A stretch of DNA of 64,000 nt from a virus (taxonomy: Duplodnaviria > Heunggongvirae > Uroviricota > Caudoviricetes). Of this stretch, positions 15,112 through 21,886 are shown piece after piece. Both the position numbers and the translations under genes were made by a program. Position 1 is the stretch's first letter. Each line of letters starts with the position of its first letter. Location of the stretch: IMG/VR virus record IMGVR_UViG_3300035034_002381, positions 64,001 to 128,000 of that record; one strand, given 5' to 3'. Under the pieces are notes generated by a model. The model was not told the origin of the DNA. It made no database searches and was given only the letters and a program-made list of their open reading frames with translations.

Positions 15112-15948
15112 ATGAAAATTAAGAAGTTTTCTGAGTTTTTATTTGAAAAAGAAAATGTCAAGGAATTGAGATTATGCTTTGTTGGAGATATTATGCAACA
15201 TGATAAAGTCGTGACTGACGATTCATTCGAAAACGTGAGGTCACTTCTAAAATCTGCTGATATCTGTGTGGGAAATTTAGAAACTATAATTACTGGTGAA
15301 AACAATAATGAAATAATTGATGGGCAAATTAAATTTAGTGCTGATGAAAGTCTTATCAAAGTTTTAAAAAATGTTGGCTTCACACATTTATCTCTCATTA
15401 ACAATCATTCACTTGACTATGGAATCGCAGGATTTCAAAAATCACAGACTGCGGTTGCTAAAGAAATAAAAATACTTAGTAAAGAAACAGAAATTTCCAA
15501 GAATGATCATAAGATCAATCTAGTTAACTTTACTACACATGTTAATAATAATATTAATAATGAATTTTCGGATCATCTAATGACACCTGACGGTTATTCT
15601 AGTAAAGCTAAGAGCATTAATATAGGATATATCCATTGGGGAGGGCAATATAACCCTAAACCCGATTCTGAACAAAAATCTCTAGCATCTAATCTAATTA
15701 ATAATGGATATCCTATTGTTATTGGTTCAGGCCCACACGTTAATCATAAAGTTGTTCGAGATGGTGAATCGATTATTGCGTATTCTTTAGGAGATTTTAT
15801 AAGTAAACACAATGATGATAGAGCTAAAGATCAAGGAAAGATTTTGATTATAGATTTTAAAAATGATATCATTGATAATGTTATGGTTTATACGACACAG
15901 ACCGATAAGAATAACGTTATCCAAATTAAAAAAAGAGAAATAATTTAG
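15112..15948 (+). CDS. CapA/PGA_cap-family metallophosphoesterase-like protein with leader (MKIKKFSEFLFE)
   Basis: CapA motifs FVGDIMQH, GNLET, NNHSLDYG, IHWG, GPHV and YSLGDF. Confidence 0.8.
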   Translation: MKIKKFSEFLFEKENVKELRLCFVGDIMQHDKVVTDDSFENVRSLLKSADICVGNLETIITGENNNEIIDGQIKFSADESLIKVLKNVGFTHLSLINNHSLDYGIAGFQKSQTAVAKEIKILSKETEISKNDHKINLVNFTTHVNNNINNEFSDHLMTPDGYSSKAKSINIGYIHWGGQYNPKPDSEQKSLASNLINNGYPIVIGSGPHVNHKVVRDGESIIAYSLGDFISKHNDDRAKDQGKILIIDFKNDIIDNVMVYTTQTDKNNVIQIKKREII

Positions 15949-15988: not shown

Positions 15989-17242
15989 ATGAAAAGAAAC
16001 ATATTATCATTTAGCGAATTTTTGCTCGAGTCTGTCGCAATACCCCAAGATGTTACAAAGTCAATAGCAGAATTTCATAAATTACAATCAGAAATAACTC
16101 GAGTTACTGCAGAACTTGAATTTCTAAAAGATGAATTTAAAGAGTTCGACGAGATGGTCGATCCTGTACTCACAGGATTAAAGGAGACTAACAAAAAAAT
16201 TGCGATTACTGAGGGTTATGCAATTAAAATTTCTCGTTTTGGTTATGAACGCACAAATAAATCTTATGCTAAAGCTTTTAAAATGGCTTTATCGAAAGTT
16301 AATAAGTCAACTCAAAAAATTCTAAGTGAGGCATTGGAAGCTTCTGCAACTACGTCAAAGATAAAATCCTCATATTCGATTGATAAATTATCAGAAGGTG
16401 AAATTAACGAGGCAGGAATTTGGGCTAAGATTGGAAAGGCGATTAAAGGTGTAGTCGGAAAATTTCTAAATATTTTTAAAAGAGAAATCAAAACTATTGA
16501 TCAATCAAATAATGAACTTGAAAAACTTGCAAGTCAATTAAGCGAATCTATTGATGAAAAAAAATCCGAAATTGAATCTATCAATGAAGCCATGAAAGAT
16601 ATTTCTAGACTAGAAAGTATTAAAAAGAAATCTGGTGGAAATCCTAATAAAGCTGCTATGTATGCTCGAAATATGGCCAAGTCTATTAAAGATAAACATA
16701 AAGCTTATGCCCGAGGAAAGGCGGCAATCGAAGTTTTTGGTGACGAGGGCGGAGAATTGGCAAGAATCTTTTTTGATAAAGCTAAAACTTTAGGTTATGA
16801 TATTGCTAAATCAGAATATCAAGATTTGAAGGTTATTGAAAAACCGATGCCAAGAACTTTGAAAAAAGGAAAGGATTTAACAGAAGCTAAAAAGCACGAT
16901 GGTAGAGAAGGATCTTCATGGGGTCATGGTCGTGATGGTGATCCAATTTTACCTATAGGTTCTGTTAATTTTATCAGTGGAAAAAATAAATATTTTAATG
17001 TTTATGAAACCTGGCCAGACAGTGTTTTGGAAATTTGGAAGACTAGAGATGGTAAATATCGAGCAGTCTGTACAGCGGGTAAAGGACCTATTTATAAAAT
17101 AGGCACAAGTAATTCGTTTATTCATGATCAAAACAGTAGATATTTATTTGGTGGTGAAATGGTTGATTGGGTAGAAGTTGAAGGTATGATGAATCTTGTA
17201 GATCTTTATGGTAAATCAATGCCCACATACACATATAAATAA
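15989..17242 (+). CDS. Leader-bearing polyprotein-like internal protein (MKRNILSFSEFLLES)
   Basis: Leader plus internal LSEGEINEA, LSESIDE, INEA and LTEA linkers. Confidence 0.6.
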   Translation: MKRNILSFSEFLLESVAIPQDVTKSIAEFHKLQSEITRVTAELEFLKDEFKEFDEMVDPVLTGLKETNKKIAITEGYAIKISRFGYERTNKSYAKAFKMALSKVNKSTQKILSEALEASATTSKIKSSYSIDKLSEGEINEAGIWAKIGKAIKGVVGKFLNIFKREIKTIDQSNNELEKLASQLSESIDEKKSEIESINEAMKDISRLESIKKKSGGNPNKAAMYARNMAKSIKDKHKAYARGKAAIEVFGDEGGELARIFFDKAKTLGYDIAKSEYQDLKVIEKPMPRTLKKGKDLTEAKKHDGREGSSWGHGRDGDPILPIGSVNFISGKNKYFNVYETWPDSVLEIWKTRDGKYRAVCTAGKGPIYKIGTSNSFIHDQNSRYLFGGEMVDWVEVEGMMNLVDLYGKSMPTYTYK

Positions 17243-17253
17243 AAACTAAAACT

Positions 17254-18852
17254 ATACTAAATTTCAAAGAACATTTAAACGAATCTAAAAGCGATTTCGT
17301 GGTTTATCATAATCAGTATTCAACAGCAATTAATGAGGGTGAAAAATATGCGAAAGCTAGAGGTTATGAATTAGATCAACAGGAATATTCAAATGCGTAT
17401 TTAGACGCATTCTTTAAACCTGAAGAAGGTAAGACTAAAAAGGATAGTTTTAAGCTTTTTAAAAATGATAAAGAACAAAGAAAACAACTACATGTTCAAA
17501 TATACAATCGCGGTATGAAAAAGTTTGAACTAAATATGTACATAAACAATAAAAAACTAATGAAAAGAAATCTTAAATTATTTGAAGAATTTATAAATGA
17601 ATCTTTTTGGTCTTTATCTAAATTAGGTGATAAATTCGATCAATTATTATCAAAAGAACTTAAAAAAATTAAAGGCTGCATATTTTATGTGAAAGGAAGA
17701 GATTTATATTGTAATGATGAATTACTTTTTAAAATAAATGGTGATAAAGATTCTGTAGAAAGTATTGTCAAAAAAGTTAGATTAAAGTTGAACGAATCTT
17801 TAATTAATGAAAAAGAATCTTATGAAAGAGGTTGTGCCATGCTATACTTTGAAAGTAATTGCACCAAAGAGGTTCGTGAGATGATTAAAGAAGAGGATTT
17901 ATATGTTGAGGAAGGCGATGTTTCTTTTGGTAAAGAAACAGAACCTCATTGTACTTTACTTTATGGGTTTGATAAAAAGGTAGAAGCAAATGAAGCATTG
18001 AAAATTTGTGAGAATTTTACATTTGAAGCATGTGAAGCACATAACATTTCTTTATTTGAATCTAAAAAATATGATGTTTTGAAATATGATATCAAAGGTA
18101 AAAATATTAAGGAATGTAATGAAGCCCTTTCTGATTTACCCTTTGAATCTGATTTTCCTGATTTTCACCCTCATATGACTGTTGCATATCTTCAACCAGG
18201 TAAAGGAAAGGAATATACTAAAATGATTAAAGAGTCTCATGCAAGATTGCAAGTGAATCCAGAAAAAATTGTTTATTCTCATCCTAATGGTAAGAAAGAA
18301 GAAATCCAAGTTTTAACGGAAGTTAAAGAAAATGAAAAAGATAATCCTTGCTGGGATGGTTATGAAATGATCGGTATGAAAACTAAAAATGGTAAAAAAG
18401 TTCCTAATTGCGTACCTATAGATGAATCAATTACCGAAAGTCGTGGGCCTAATAGTTTTGAACACTATTTTAAAAACGCCAAGAAAAAACTATCTAGATC
18501 CGGTTTCAAGATAAAAGAAGTTAAAGATACTTATATTAAAGATCATACTGCTATTGTTATTATTTATACTGAGTCTGGTCCAGGTGGTGGAGATAATGAA
18601 TGGATACAAATATTTTATAATACTGAGGAAGAAAGAAAGAAGATTTATAAAGAGTTTGATATCGATGAATCTGTAAGCGAAGGGAAAAAGGATGATAAAA
18701 AAGGCTGGTATAAGGATAAGAAAAAATGGAATCAGGCAAGAAAAAAACTAACTAATGTAGCCGATGACAATGAAATCTGGAGCAAAAATGCGGATGCAGA
18801 TATTATTGCCTTTTGGTATGACGAAAAAGACGAAGGTTGGGTACAAAAATAA
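17254..18852 (+). CDS. Leader-bearing polyprotein containing an Acb1/gp57B-like 2H phosphoesterase
   Basis: In-frame ATA at 17254 gives (M)LNFKEHLNES. A second leader MKRNLKLFEEFINES starts at 17560. HCTLLYG and HMTVAY are the two HxT motifs. A CWDGY...VPNCVP module follows. Confidence 0.65.
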   Translation: MLNFKEHLNESKSDFVVYHNQYSTAINEGEKYAKARGYELDQQEYSNAYLDAFFKPEEGKTKKDSFKLFKNDKEQRKQLHVQIYNRGMKKFELNMYINNKKLMKRNLKLFEEFINESFWSLSKLGDKFDQLLSKELKKIKGCIFYVKGRDLYCNDELLFKINGDKDSVESIVKKVRLKLNESLINEKESYERGCAMLYFESNCTKEVREMIKEEDLYVEEGDVSFGKETEPHCTLLYGFDKKVEANEALKICENFTFEACEAHNISLFESKKYDVLKYDIKGKNIKECNEALSDLPFESDFPDFHPHMTVAYLQPGKGKEYTKMIKESHARLQVNPEKIVYSHPNGKKEEIQVLTEVKENEKDNPCWDGYEMIGMKTKNGKKVPNCVPIDESITESRGPNSFEHYFKNAKKKLSRSGFKIKEVKDTYIKDHTAIVIIYTESGPGGGDNEWIQIFYNTEEERKKIYKEFDIDESVSEGKKDDKKGWYKDKKKWNQARKKLTNVADDNEIWSKNADADIIAFWYDEKDEGWVQK

Positions 18853-18859
18853 AAAGAAT

Positions 18860-18892
18860 ATGAAAACATTTAAAGAATTCTTAAACGTTTGA
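18860..18892 (+). pseudogene. Leader-only mini-ORF MKTFKEFLNV*
   Basis: ATGAAAACATTTAAAGAATTCTTAAACGTTTGA; the first 20 nt are identical to the start of ORF 3468. Confidence 0.6.
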
Positions 18893-20586: not shown

Positions 20587-21191
20587 AAAGAAAACTTAAA
20601 ACTTACGATATGTTTCTAGAAAGCAGTGGAGATGAGCTGAATCTAAAAAGAAACAAATGGAAAAAAATGTCACGAAAAGACGCTGAAAAAGTAAGTGATG
20701 AAATCTATAATCTAATCGAAATAGCATATTCAGAAATTGGTGGTCATTTAAAGGTTAATAGTCCTGATGATGTTACTAAAGATGAATCTTGGAATTTTTG
20801 GGAAGGTGTTGATATTCACGATAGCCCTGATTTAGATGTAGTTATTTGGGGAAAGAAAACTAAATATGGTGTCAAATTTTCTGGAGTTGGACATGACGGA
20901 AAAAAAGATTCAAAAAGAAAATATTTAGATCAAAGAGGTTCTGATTTGAAAAATTTAGGATTTTTTATTGAGGTAAGCGGAAAACTTGCAGAAATTTTAA
21001 TGGCAAAATACGAAGTACCGTATGTCGAAGGAGAAGAAAATATCAACAAAATTCTTAATAAACAAGTAGAATATCATGGTGATCATCCTGTAGATGCTTC
21101 TTTACCTGGTAAAGGATGGTATTCAAGAAAAATAGGTGGAAAGCTTATGTCTAAAATTGTTTTAGGAAGACCGAAAGGAATTAAGTCATGA
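20583..21191 (+). CDS. Leader-bearing hypothetical protein (MKRKLKTYDMFLES)
   Basis: Leader present; the domain (IYNLIEIAYSEIGG, GVKFSGVGHDG) is not assigned. Confidence 0.55.
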   Translation: MKRKLKTYDMFLESSGDELNLKRNKWKKMSRKDAEKVSDEIYNLIEIAYSEIGGHLKVNSPDDVTKDESWNFWEGVDIHDSPDLDVVIWGKKTKYGVKFSGVGHDGKKDSKRKYLDQRGSDLKNLGFFIEVSGKLAEILMAKYEVPYVEGEENINKILNKQVEYHGDHPVDASLPGKGWYSRKIGGKLMSKIVLGRPKGIKS

Positions 21192-21886
21192 AGATAATGT
21201 ATTTACATGGCCTTGAAAGTAAAGGGTCAACAAAAAAGGATAAAATACTGCGGGAATATGGAGAGTTATATTCACCGGCCTGTTATTATAAATCTAATCT
21301 AAATACAATCTATAAAAGCCTACTTTATGAGGCGGCAGTTTTTGAACCTGATATAATTATTGGTTCTTCAATGGGTGGATTAATTGCTTATCATCTAGGT
21401 AATAGATTAAACAAACATTTGATTTTATTTAATCCAGCTTTGTATGAACAATCAATAGATATTCAATATAAATTTGATGCATCAAATTCTAAAAATGTAA
21501 TCATTCTTCAGGGCGACAAAGATGTTGTTGTTGATCCTAAAGTTACACAGAAATGGTTAAAAGATAATCATAAAGGATCATACACAATTGAAAAATATTC
21601 AGGTGGTCATAGAGTACCAGTCAATGTTTTCAAAGACGCAATGAAAAAATTTATGATTAGTGAAAGATATGTTTATAAGTATTCTGATTTACTTTTAGAA
21701 AAAGCAACTTCAAAAGCTCAACAAAGAGCAGCCGGAATGGCTTATTCAGCTAAAAAGGGCGATATGGATCCTGATGAATTAGAAGGAGCTGCCAAAGAAA
21801 TGTATGACGGTATGTCAGAAGAACAATTAAAGAAATTTGCTAAAACTAAACACAAAAATTTACCAGATAAAGTTAACAAAAAATGA
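21188..21886 (+). CDS. YqiA-like alpha/beta hydrolase fused to a DUF3008-like module
   Basis: YLHGLES, GSSMGG nucleophile elbow, GDKDVVV and GGH motifs. C-terminal ATSKAQQRAAGMA...KTKHKNLP. Confidence 0.75.
   Translation: MKIMYLHGLESKGSTKKDKILREYGELYSPACYYKSNLNTIYKSLLYEAAVFEPDIIIGSSMGGLIAYHLGNRLNKHLILFNPALYEQSIDIQYKFDASNSKNVIILQGDKDVVVDPKVTQKWLKDNHKGSYTIEKYSGGHRVPVNVFKDAMKKFMISERYVYKYSDLLLEKATSKAQQRAAGMAYSAKKGDMDPDELEGAAKEMYDGMSEEQLKKFAKTKHKNLPDKVNKK

What the first reader, a model, noticed from the sequence alone, without database searches (positions are those of the whole stretch)
15989..18852. Polyproteins: cargo modules strung together with (I/L)xE|(S/G/A) protease-type linkers
Seen: ORF 15989 has LSE-GEINE-A, LSE-SIDE, INE-A and LTE-A between compositionally distinct blocks. 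ORF 17254 has FINE-S, LNE-SLINE, LTE, IDE-SITE-S and IDE-SVSE-G separating at least six modules, including a 2H domain and a CWDGY...VPNCVP two-Cys module at 18340-18417. A complete second leader (MKRNLKLFEEFINES, ATG 17560) sits in frame internally. Known: gp21 cleaves after (I/L)xE. Inference: one leader loads a chain of small effectors that head maturation releases as separate proteins, and these chains form by gene fusion.
Basis: partly seen in the sequence, partly recalled or inferred. Interest (0 to 1): 0.8.

Follow-up and report, generated by a model that had tools for sequence, protein, structure and literature searches.

The report
Phage head-cargo chains with protease-site linkers
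Two genes of an uncultured T4-like phage string unrelated small protein modules together, and every joint carries the cutting motif of the phage's own head protease, so they are probably loaded into the capsid and cut apart, although nobody has measured the cutting.

Summary
The motifs are real and not chance. [IL]xE[SGA] occurs 8 times in ORF1 (1.3 expected) and 7 times in ORF2 from ATG 17560 (1.0 expected); no shuffle out of 5000 reached either count. In AlphaFold models and homology maps, all nine leader or module junctions carry an [IL]xE. Four strict-motif sites lie inside modules: two in the 2H fold and two in ORF1's helical module A.

Relatives hold the same modules as free-standing genes with a T4-CTS-like leader, or in another order. 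The genome encodes an S77 (gp21-type) protease and a gp23-type capsid protein.

One sub-claim fails. "ORF 17254" has no ATG. Its first codon is ATA where relative L083 has ATG. In near-identical strain L086 that upstream module is frameshifted and ends in TAATAA. The window lost 8 nt there, which put the module in frame. So the "internal second leader" is the normal start of a 430-aa gene.

Best reading: capsid-addressed cargo chains, including an Acb1-like 2H phosphodiesterase, cut at their joints by the prohead protease. Cutting and packaging are inferred.

This scan has noted similar chains in other genomes. I found no paper describing them.

The parts
15989..17242 (+). ORF1, 417 aa: a leader-tagged chain of four modules
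   Evidence: It has 8 [IL]xE[SGA] sites against 1.34 expected.
15989..16030 (+). ORF1 leader MKRNILSFSEFLLE|S, which resembles the T4 capsid-targeting sequence
   Evidence: The same pattern starts at least 12 genes of this genome.
16031..16390 (+). ORF1 module A (aa 15-134), helical
   Evidence: With module B it forms the stand-alone leader-tagged gene P0070. The model is helical with pLDDT 50-65.
16388..16411 (+). Linker LSE|GEINE|A (aa 134-141)
   Evidence: It falls in the low-confidence stretch 118-139 of the model.
16412..16588 (+). ORF1 module B (aa 142-186), a cationic amphipathic helix GIWAKIGKAIKGVVGKFLNIF, followed by the spacer SIDEKKSEIESINE|A
   Evidence: The PSM-alpha match is weak (E 0.04) and only a hint.
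16589..17239 (+). ORF1 modules D (aa 201-299, helical, pLDDT 80-90) and E (aa 300-417, beta-rich, pLDDT 81-92), joined by a disordered stretch that holds LTE|A
   Evidence: D plus E is a stand-alone leader-tagged gene in P0072 and P0073. In 7 of 7 homologs it is preceded by [ILV]xE, whatever lies upstream.
17239..17559 (+). Former separate gene: leader (I)LNFKEHLNE|S plus an alpha/beta module of about 90 aa. It has no ATG and is in frame with the next gene
   Evidence: ATA 17254 aligns with the ATG of the free-standing 97-aa gene L083 2803..3096. Strain L086 has two frameshifts here and keeps the TAATAA stop. The window lacks 8 nt at that stop. Model pLDDT is about 95.
17560..18852 (+). ORF2 proper, 430 aa: a leader plus five modules
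   Evidence: Called as a 430-aa gene in L086. Orthologs P0002 and P0003 start with the same leader. It has 7 sites against 1.0 expected.
17560..17601 (+). Leader MKRNLKLFEEFINE|S
17602..17811 (+). Module B (SFW..., alpha/beta, pLDDT about 70), ending in the hinge LNE|SLINE|K
   Evidence: In P0002 the same module follows a different module and the motif SLNE|S. Model pLDDT is below 50 at residues 190-193.
17812..18321 (+). 2H phosphoesterase module, Acb1-like, with HCT and HMT motifs. It ends in LTE|V
   Evidence: Pfam PF23474 scores 27.5 bits against a cut-off of 27. Model pLDDT is about 97. PDB neighbours are viral cGAMP phosphodiesterases, Acb1, Usb1 and LigT.
18322..18438 (+). CWDGY..VPNCVP mini-module, followed by the linker IDE|SITE|S
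   Evidence: This is the only part with DNA matches in cultured phages. The same motif sits on podovirus portal proteins and Dps proteins. It is unstructured in the model.
18439..18849 (+). Module E (aa 401-477), linker IDE|SVSE|G, and module F (aa 482-537)
   Evidence: pLDDT is 50-69 for E and low for F. Few homologs exist.

Best explanation
ORF1 (15989..17242) and ORF2 proper (17560..18852) are cargo genes of a deep-branching T4-like phage. Each starts with a 14-residue peptide that resembles the T4 capsid-targeting sequence. Each then strings four or five unrelated modules together.

Every junction carries [IL]xE followed by a small or polar residue, the cutting rule of gp21-type (S77) prohead proteases. 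The likely course is as follows.
1. The leader docks the chain on the scaffolding core of the prohead.
2. The prohead protease removes the leader and cuts the exposed junctions.
3. The pieces, among them an Acb1-like 2H phosphodiesterase, stay in the head and enter the next cell with the DNA.

Shown here: the motifs, their enrichment, their position at module boundaries, the free-standing leader-tagged versions of the modules, and the presence of the protease and a gp23-type capsid protein.

Inferred: packaging, cutting at internal sites, delivery, and what the modules do.

The stretch 17239-17559 is probably a dying neighbour gene, not part of the chain.
For: 1. Enrichment. There are 8, 9 and 7 sites against 1.0-1.3 expected, and 0 of 5000 shuffles reach those counts. 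Other leader-tagged genes sit at background: 6 sites in 2206 aa, or 0.27 per 100 aa. So the excess belongs to the multi-module genes.

2. Position. All 4 junctions of ORF1 and all 5 of ORF2 proper hold an [IL]xE. They lie in low-pLDDT or hinge segments: ORF1 14-16, 118-139, 281-315; ORF2 190-193, 367-405, 479-493. The exception is ORF1's B/D junction, which sits in a modelled long helix.

3. Comparative evidence.
- P0070 is leader plus ORF1 modules A-B. P0072 and P0073 are leader plus ORF1 modules D-E.
- L083 2803..3096 is leader plus ORF2's upstream module.
- P0002 has ORF2's modules in a different order, and homology starts right after SLNE|.
- Of 90 homologs of the 2H module, 72 have [ILVMF]xE 4-14 residues before the conserved Cys. 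That is 56 of 69 stand-alone genes and 16 of 21 embedded copies.
- Many stand-alone N-termini read like the T4 sequence, for example MIFKTFEQFIAES.

4. Machinery. Peptidase_S77 scores 46-48 bits and Gp23 scores 122 bits. The capsid protein has SLNE|A at residues 41-44, where T4 gp23 has its propeptide cut (the T4 position is from memory). The protease ORF itself has 12 sites.

5. Level of selection. Codons at the sites differ at silent positions, so the conservation is in the peptide, not the DNA.

6. Published background. gp21 prefers I/LxE (PMC12991175). The first 10 residues of IPIII suffice for head loading, and core proteins are cut many times (PMC9026906).
Against: There are no proteomic, N-terminal or expression data; no RNA run was listed.

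Four strict-motif sites in the two genes lie inside modules. LFE|S and IKE|S are in the 2H fold. ITE|G and LSE|A are in ORF1's helical module A. The motif alone therefore does not predict cutting.

The ORF1 junctions at 184-200 sit in one long modelled helix, not in a loop.

In T4 itself, cargo proteins lose only terminal propeptides. Multiple cuts are known for scaffold proteins and propeptides (PMC9026906, PMC10052503).

The sites could be leftovers of leaders after recent fusions.

Enrichment in 21 homologs is weaker: 56 sites against 21 expected.
Confidence: 0.5

Rival explanations
1. These are multi-domain cargo proteins that lose only the N-terminal leader. The internal [IL]xE motifs are relics of leaders left behind when leader-tagged genes fused, or simply flexible acidic linkers, and they are not cut.
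For: Fusions with a retained whole leader exist. Window gene 21188 residues 160-231 match L082 8686 residues 2-73 at 68% identity, leader included. T4 cargo proteins (IPI-III, Alt) lose only terminal peptides (PMC9026906). Some sites lie inside folded domains.
Against: The junction motif survives where the rest of the leader is gone. Upstream sequences are unrelated in 7 of 7 homologs of ORF1 module D. It also survives in 16 of 21 embedded 2H copies at only 35-45% identity. That argues for selection on the site itself.
Confidence: 0.25
2. ORF1's helical N-terminal half (aa 15-200) is a scaffold-binding propeptide or core-like component. It is chopped up and expelled to make room for DNA, as happens to T4 gp22/gp67/gp68 and to the long propeptides of phiKZ and SPN3US. 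Only the C-terminal D-E part would remain as mature cargo.
For: Six of ORF1's eight sites lie in aa 73-200, which is modelled as long helices. Multiple cuts inside propeptides are documented (PMC10052503, PMC9026906).
Against: Modules A-B form an independent leader-tagged gene with a different C-terminal module in P0070. That fits a module with a role of its own. ORF2's modules are compact alpha/beta domains and an enzyme, not scaffold-like.
Confidence: 0.15
3. The proteins are not packaged at all. The shared N-terminal peptide serves another purpose, such as translation start context or localisation, and the motif excess has some unrelated cause.
For: There is no direct evidence of packaging. 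No T4-type late promoter is enriched: TATAAATA occurs 16 times on one strand and 15 on the other, and sits upstream of only 6 genes.
Against: The leader matches the T4 sequence in pattern and ends in the protease motif. The same motif marks the predicted capsid-protein maturation site. Leader codons vary at silent positions. The protease family is present.
Confidence: 0.1

Closest known systems
T4 internal proteins IPI, IPII, IPIII and Alt, with their capsid-targeting sequence cut by gp21 (PMC3012670, PMC9026906)
   Same: A short N-terminal peptide with the same pattern (aromatic-x-E-F-hydrophobic-x-E). It sits on unrelated, fast-changing proteins, ends in the I/LxE protease motif, and occurs in a phage with S77 protease and gp23-type capsid.
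   Different: Here one leader heads a chain of four or five modules with further protease motifs at every joint. T4 cargo proteins are single units that lose only terminal peptides. Nothing has been measured here.
Multiply cleaved propeptides and inner-body or ejection proteins of phiKZ, 201phi2-1 and SPN3US (PMC10052503, PMC9026906)
   Same: Head proteins with several x-x-E cleavage motifs, cut many times by a gp21-related prohead protease.
   Different: In those phages the multiple cuts remove one long N-terminal propeptide. Here the motifs separate distinct folded modules that exist elsewhere as genes of their own.
Polyvalent proteins of phages and conjugative elements (Iyer et al. 2017, PMC5512222)
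   Same: Many unrelated effector-type domains in one polypeptide, thought to travel with the DNA. The 2H phosphoesterase is among the listed domains, and processing into pieces is proposed.
   Different: Those are proposed to be processed by peptidase domains embedded in the chain, such as zincin-like MPTase. Here there is no embedded peptidase. The joints instead match the separate head protease, and a capsid-targeting-type leader heads the chain.
Acb1 anti-CBASS 2H phosphodiesterase (T4 gene 57B family; PDB 7T26 and 7T27)
   Same: 2H fold, two HxT motifs, and a Pfam Acb1 match just above the cut-off.
   Different: It is embedded in a leader-tagged chain, and its relatives mostly carry a cleavable N-terminal peptide. 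The substrate is unknown. Structural similarity to Acb1 is no better than to Usb1, LigT or poxvirus cGAMP phosphodiesterase.

Membership tests
T4-type capsid-targeting / internal-protein system | N-terminal peptide of about 10-15 residues with the capsid-targeting pattern, ending in (I/L)xE | tested here: met
   ORF1 has MKRNILSFSEFLLE|S and ORF2 has MKRNLKLFEEFINE|S. At least 12 genes in the genome share the pattern.
T4-type capsid-targeting / internal-protein system | A gp21-family (S77) prohead protease and a gp23-type capsid protein in the same genome | tested here: met
   PF03420 scores 46-48 bits against a cut-off of 27. PF07068 scores 122 bits.
T4-type capsid-targeting / internal-protein system | The protein is found in the head and its leader is removed by the protease | not testable with these tools
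   This needs virion mass spectrometry or cleavage assays.
Protease-processed polyprotein | Cleavage motifs lie between, not inside, independently folding modules | tested here: met
   All 9 junctions carry [IL]xE. Of the strict-motif sites in the two genes, 4 lie inside modules: two in ORF1's helical module A and two in the 2H fold.
Protease-processed polyprotein | The modules exist as separate products | not testable with these tools
   Only indirect evidence exists: the same modules are separate genes in relatives.
Polyvalent proteins (Iyer 2017) | Two to fifteen unrelated effector domains in one phage polypeptide | tested here: met
   There are four to five modules per gene, and none is related to another.
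Polyvalent proteins (Iyer 2017) | A processing peptidase domain (MPTase or similar) embedded in the chain | tested here: not met
   No peptidase family matched either ORF in Pfam or PHROGs.
Acb1 (PF23474) | Profile match above the curated cut-off, plus two HxT/S motifs | tested here: met
   27.5 bits against a cut-off of 27, which is marginal. HCT and HMT are present.
Acb1 (PF23474) | Hydrolysis of cyclic oligonucleotide immune signals | not testable with these tools
   The fold search places it in the 2H superfamily without separating subfamilies.
DUF3721 (PF12518), the CWxGY mini-domain | Profile match | tested here: inconclusive
   There was no hit at E<=1 for residues 355-400. Proteins that share the motif do carry PF12518 in precomputed tables.

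The most novel reading that the evidence does not exclude
In a widespread group of uncultured T4-like phages, the head-protease cutting site doubles as a universal joint. Any small protein that carries the leader can be fused to any other and still be delivered as a separate, ready-made protein with the DNA. This would include enzymes that destroy immune signalling nucleotides before the host can respond. It would be a modular, shuffling injected arsenal far larger than T4's handful of internal proteins.
Probability: 0.35. Interest if true: 0.7.

Novelty: new variant of a known kind. Interest (0 to 1): 0.55.

Why it matters
If the joints are cut, packaged and injected proteins could be predicted from sequence alone in the many T4-like phages that cannot be grown. 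It would also show how phages enlarge and reshuffle that set, by fusing leader-tagged genes.

A pre-made Acb1-like phosphodiesterase delivered with the DNA would be a counter-defence that acts before any phage gene is expressed. A recent preprint reports that gp21 protease activity itself triggers CBASS (PMC12991175), which makes a protease-linked anti-CBASS cargo worth testing.

The leader-plus-joint grammar could also be used to load several proteins into T4-type capsids from one gene.

Tried and rejected
- Late promoters. TATAAATA is not enriched and does not favour a strand: 16 against 15 copies, upstream of only 6 genes. This gives no evidence on timing.
- Frameshift from ORF1 into the upstream module. 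The frame relation differs between the window and L086 because of a 7-nt indel, and there is no slippery site. Rejected.
- GTG 17299 as start. It reads TCA in L086. Rejected.
- DNA-level recombination linker, as reported for other genomes in this scan. Site codons differ at silent positions, so this does not apply here.
- Viral-contig searches. The ORF2 scan returned only CWDGY-module hits, the ORF1 scan returned nothing, and the leader-2 DNA pattern returned nothing.
- Fold searches for ORF1 in PDB Foldseek, AFDB clusters and VIA wide gave nothing above noise. The best was Z 8 on a helical stretch.
- Protein atlas searches for ORF2's upstream module and for ORF1 modules D-E gave no usable hit.
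- Pfam on single modules gave nothing significant.
- Sequencing runs. No RNA holder was listed. The contigs laid down show a variant strain but cannot show expression.
- Internal-site enrichment as a general trait of leader-tagged genes: not found.
Full report
**Setting**

The window is bases 64001-128000 of a 173.5-kb uncultured virus record with about 30% G+C. The genome encodes a Peptidase_S77 (gp21-type) domain at the start of a 691-aa ORF, and a Gp23-family major capsid protein. The nearest capsid proteins in the cultured or deposited phage set are only about 40-43% identical (Lak megaphages and an uncultured phage, with many cyanophages further off). This is therefore a deep-branching T4-like phage with no close isolate.

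Contigs that match the region come from lake and salt-lake metagenomes.

Earlier notes of this scan on the same genome (e1-1889958, e1-1835408) already described a family of genes that start with a T4-CTS-like leader. I found the same family independently.

**The observation**

ORF1 runs 15989..17242 (417 aa) and starts MKRNILSFSEFLLES. The second frame is open from 17239 to 18852.

[IL]xE[SGA] occurs as follows:

| Stretch | Observed | Expected from shuffles | Shuffles reaching the count |
|---|---|---|---|
| ORF1 | 8 | 1.34 | 0 of 5000 |
| Frame from 17239 | 9 | 1.14 | 0 of 5000 |
| Gene from ATG 17560 | 7 | 1.0 | 0 of 5000 |

The proteome background is 0.33 sites per 100 aa.

The excess is not a trait of leader-tagged genes in general. 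The other eleven have 6 sites in 2206 aa, which is background, and the single-domain PGA_cap cargo has none. The excess belongs to the multi-module genes.

The protease ORF itself has 12 sites.

Codons at the sites vary at silent positions (TTA/TTG/CTT, AAT/AAC, GAA/GAG, TCT/AGT/TCA). What is conserved is therefore the peptide, not a DNA junction.

**Where the sites lie**

The AlphaFold2 models have mean pLDDT 66.8 for ORF1 and 73.5 for ORF2.

ORF2, numbered from 17239, resolves into these parts:
- a compact alpha/beta module at 21-104 (pLDDT about 95)
- a helix at 105-129, which is the second leader
- a small alpha/beta module at 131-191
- a 2H domain at 198-357 (pLDDT about 97)
- an unstructured stretch at 367-405 that holds CWDGY..VPNCVP
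- a module at 406-472
- a low-confidence tail

Low-confidence hinges at 190-193, 367-405 and 479-493 coincide with LNE|SLINE|K, IDE|SITE|S and IDE|SVSE|G. The 2H/CWDGY junction has LTE|V.

ORF1 has low-confidence stretches at 14-16, 118-139 and 281-315. These hold LLE|S, LSE|GEINE|A and LTE|A. The B/D junction (LSE|S, IDE|K, INE|A) lies in a long modelled helix.

So all four junctions of ORF1 and all five of ORF2 proper carry an [IL]xE.

Four strict-motif sites in the two genes are not at junctions: ITE|G and LSE|A in ORF1's helical module A, and LFE|S and IKE|S inside the 2H fold. A fifth, INE|G, lies in a helix of the upstream module.

**Relatives**

ORF1's parts occur separately:
- P0070 is leader MKHIKLFEQFINE plus modules A-B plus an unrelated tail.
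- P0072 (MKNLQDYEDFILESLVLE|ASQKD...) and P0073 (MKAKFVKETLNE|AFGQKD...) are leader plus modules D-E.
- P0069, P0071, P0074 and P0075 put other modules in front of D.
- In 7 of 7 cases D is preceded by [ILV]xE, while the sequence further upstream is unrelated (alignment A2).

ORF2's modules recur in other arrangements:
- P0002 is leader, X, B, CWDGY, two others, then 2H.
- P0003 is leader, X, 2H, then another module.
- Homology begins right after the motif: ...SLNE|SFWPKSKL against ...FINE|SFWSLSKL, and ...SLNE|KASYERGC against ...LINE|KESYERGC.

A search of 1.84 billion representatives gave 6339 hits. The 2H module is mostly a free-standing protein of 165-195 aa. Of 90 aligned homologs, 72 have [ILVMF]xE 4-14 residues before the conserved Cys (56 of 69 stand-alone, 16 of 21 embedded). 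Many N-termini are close to the T4 sequence, for example MIFKTFEQFIAES, MKQYIKLFEQFICEN and MRQVITFEEFILES.

In 21 homologs the strict motif is 2.7-fold enriched overall, at 56 sites against 21 expected.

**The second leader**

Loci L082 and L083 are syntenic relatives. They share the gene order giant protein, 404-aa protein, PhoH, PGA_cap, variable cargo genes, UPF0227.

In L083 the upstream module is a free-standing 97-aa gene, MKKFKEYLNES...ELNMYIN*. Its ATG aligns with the window's ATA at 17254-17256.

L086 is a near-identical strain. Its ORF1 is the same apart from one extra Glu. L086 shares the ATA, has two 1-nt deletions that frameshift the module into a TAG, and keeps TAATAA after ...NMYIN. 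An ATG follows, opening a 430-aa gene that starts MKRNLLLFEEFINES. Contigs from two further salt-lake runs show the same variant.

The window lacks 8 nt at that stop. This removes the stop and puts the module in frame with ATG 17560.

GTG 17299, the first canonical start in the frame, reads TCA in L086. Two other assemblies are identical to the window, ATA included.

The simplest reading has three parts:
- The upstream gene lost its start in the common ancestor and is decaying.
- The in-frame join is a recent accident.
- MKRNLKLFEEFINES is the ordinary N-terminus of the gene.

Translation from ATA cannot be excluded. I put it at about one in three.

**Fusion is real elsewhere**

ORF1 is a stable fusion found in both strains. 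Window gene 21188..21886 joins a UPF0227 hydrolase to a DUF3008 module through RYVYKYSDLLLEK. That segment and what follows are 68% identical to the start of L082's free-standing gene MKHLKSYKELLLEK.... L082's own UPF0227 gene has the same internal peptide followed by a different module.

**The modules**

The 2H module matches Pfam Acb1 at 27.5 bits against a cut-off of 27, and 2_5_RNA_ligase2 below its cut-off. It has both HxT motifs.

Its nearest solved structures all have TM about 0.5-0.6 by target:
- penguinpox cGAMP phosphodiesterase
- a Burkholderia phage phosphodiesterase
- Usb1
- Acb1
- LigT

The fold is certain. The substrate is not.

The CWDGY mini-module is the only part with DNA matches in cultured phages (S-TIM5-like cyanophages and others). 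It recurs on podovirus portal proteins and Dps-like proteins.

The ORF1 model as a whole found no fold match above noise. ORF2's smaller modules were not searched on their own, and the ORF2 hit list is filled by the 2H domain.

**Mechanism**

In T4, the first ten residues of IPIII suffice to load a protein into the prohead core. gp21 then cuts after Glu in I/LxE motifs. It removes terminal propeptides from cargo and chops core proteins into many pieces (PMC9026906, PMC3012670, PMC12991175). In phiKZ-type phages, long propeptides carry several redundant sites (PMC10052503).

This phage has the protease, the capsid protein and the leader. Its capsid protein has SLNE|A at residues 41-44, where T4 gp23 has its maturation cut (the T4 position is from memory).

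I therefore think it most likely that both proteins are loaded through the leader and cut at the leader and at exposed junctions. That would release separate small proteins, which leave with the DNA.

The main rivals are these:
- Only the leader is cut, and the internal motifs are relics of past fusions.
- ORF1's helical half is a disposable propeptide.
- The proteins are not packaged at all.

**Novelty**

The targeting sequence, protease specificity, multiply cut propeptides and polyvalent proteins (PMC5512222) are all known. I found no paper describing chains of independent cargo modules joined at head-protease sites.

This scan has flagged similar chains in at least eight other genomes. The pattern is therefore recurrent but untested. 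I class it as a new variant of a known kind.

Noticed in passing
window 18860-18892: An orphan 10-codon mini-ORF, MKTFKEFLNV*. It is a capsid-targeting-type leader cut short by TGA, just after ORF2. In strain L086 a 62-aa ORF occupies about the same position. The next gene (18918, GTG start) begins MKYIISYKDLNEK, which is also leader-like.
   Followed up: partly
window 21188-21886: A UPF0227-type hydrolase fused to a DUF3008 module through an internal leader-like peptide, RYVYKYSDLLLEK. In relative L082 the DUF3008 part is a separate gene that starts MKHLKSYKELLLEK. The hydrolase itself has no N-terminal leader.
   Followed up: yes
window 15112-15948: A PGA_cap (CapA-like metallophosphatase, 134 bits) carries the same leader in the window and in two relatives. 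It has no internal protease motif.
   Followed up: partly
window 16412-16480 (ORF1 aa 142-164): GIWAKIGKAIKGVVGKFLNIFKR is a cationic amphipathic helix flanked by protease motifs. It has a weak Pfam hint to phenol-soluble modulin alpha (E 0.04). If released, it could be a membrane-active peptide.
   Followed up: no
window 18349-18417: The CWDGY..VPNCVP mini-module is 75-81% identical in DNA to stretches in S-TIM5-like cyanophages, Synechococcus phages B3 and B23, and a Paraglaciecola virus. It recurs, sometimes in tandem, on podovirus portal proteins, Dps-like proteins and others.
   Followed up: partly
window 17240-17246: A 7-nt indel (TAAAAAC, a near tandem repeat) between ORF1's stop and the ATA codon differs between the window and the salt-lake strain. 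The upstream-module region shows clustered third-position differences against 99% identical flanks, which suggests a recombination patch.
   Followed up: partly
outside the window: genome 17120-19195: The S77 protease domain is the first 215 residues or so of a 691-aa ORF with 12 [IL]xE[SGA] sites. This looks like a protease fused to a scaffold-like tail.
   Followed up: partly
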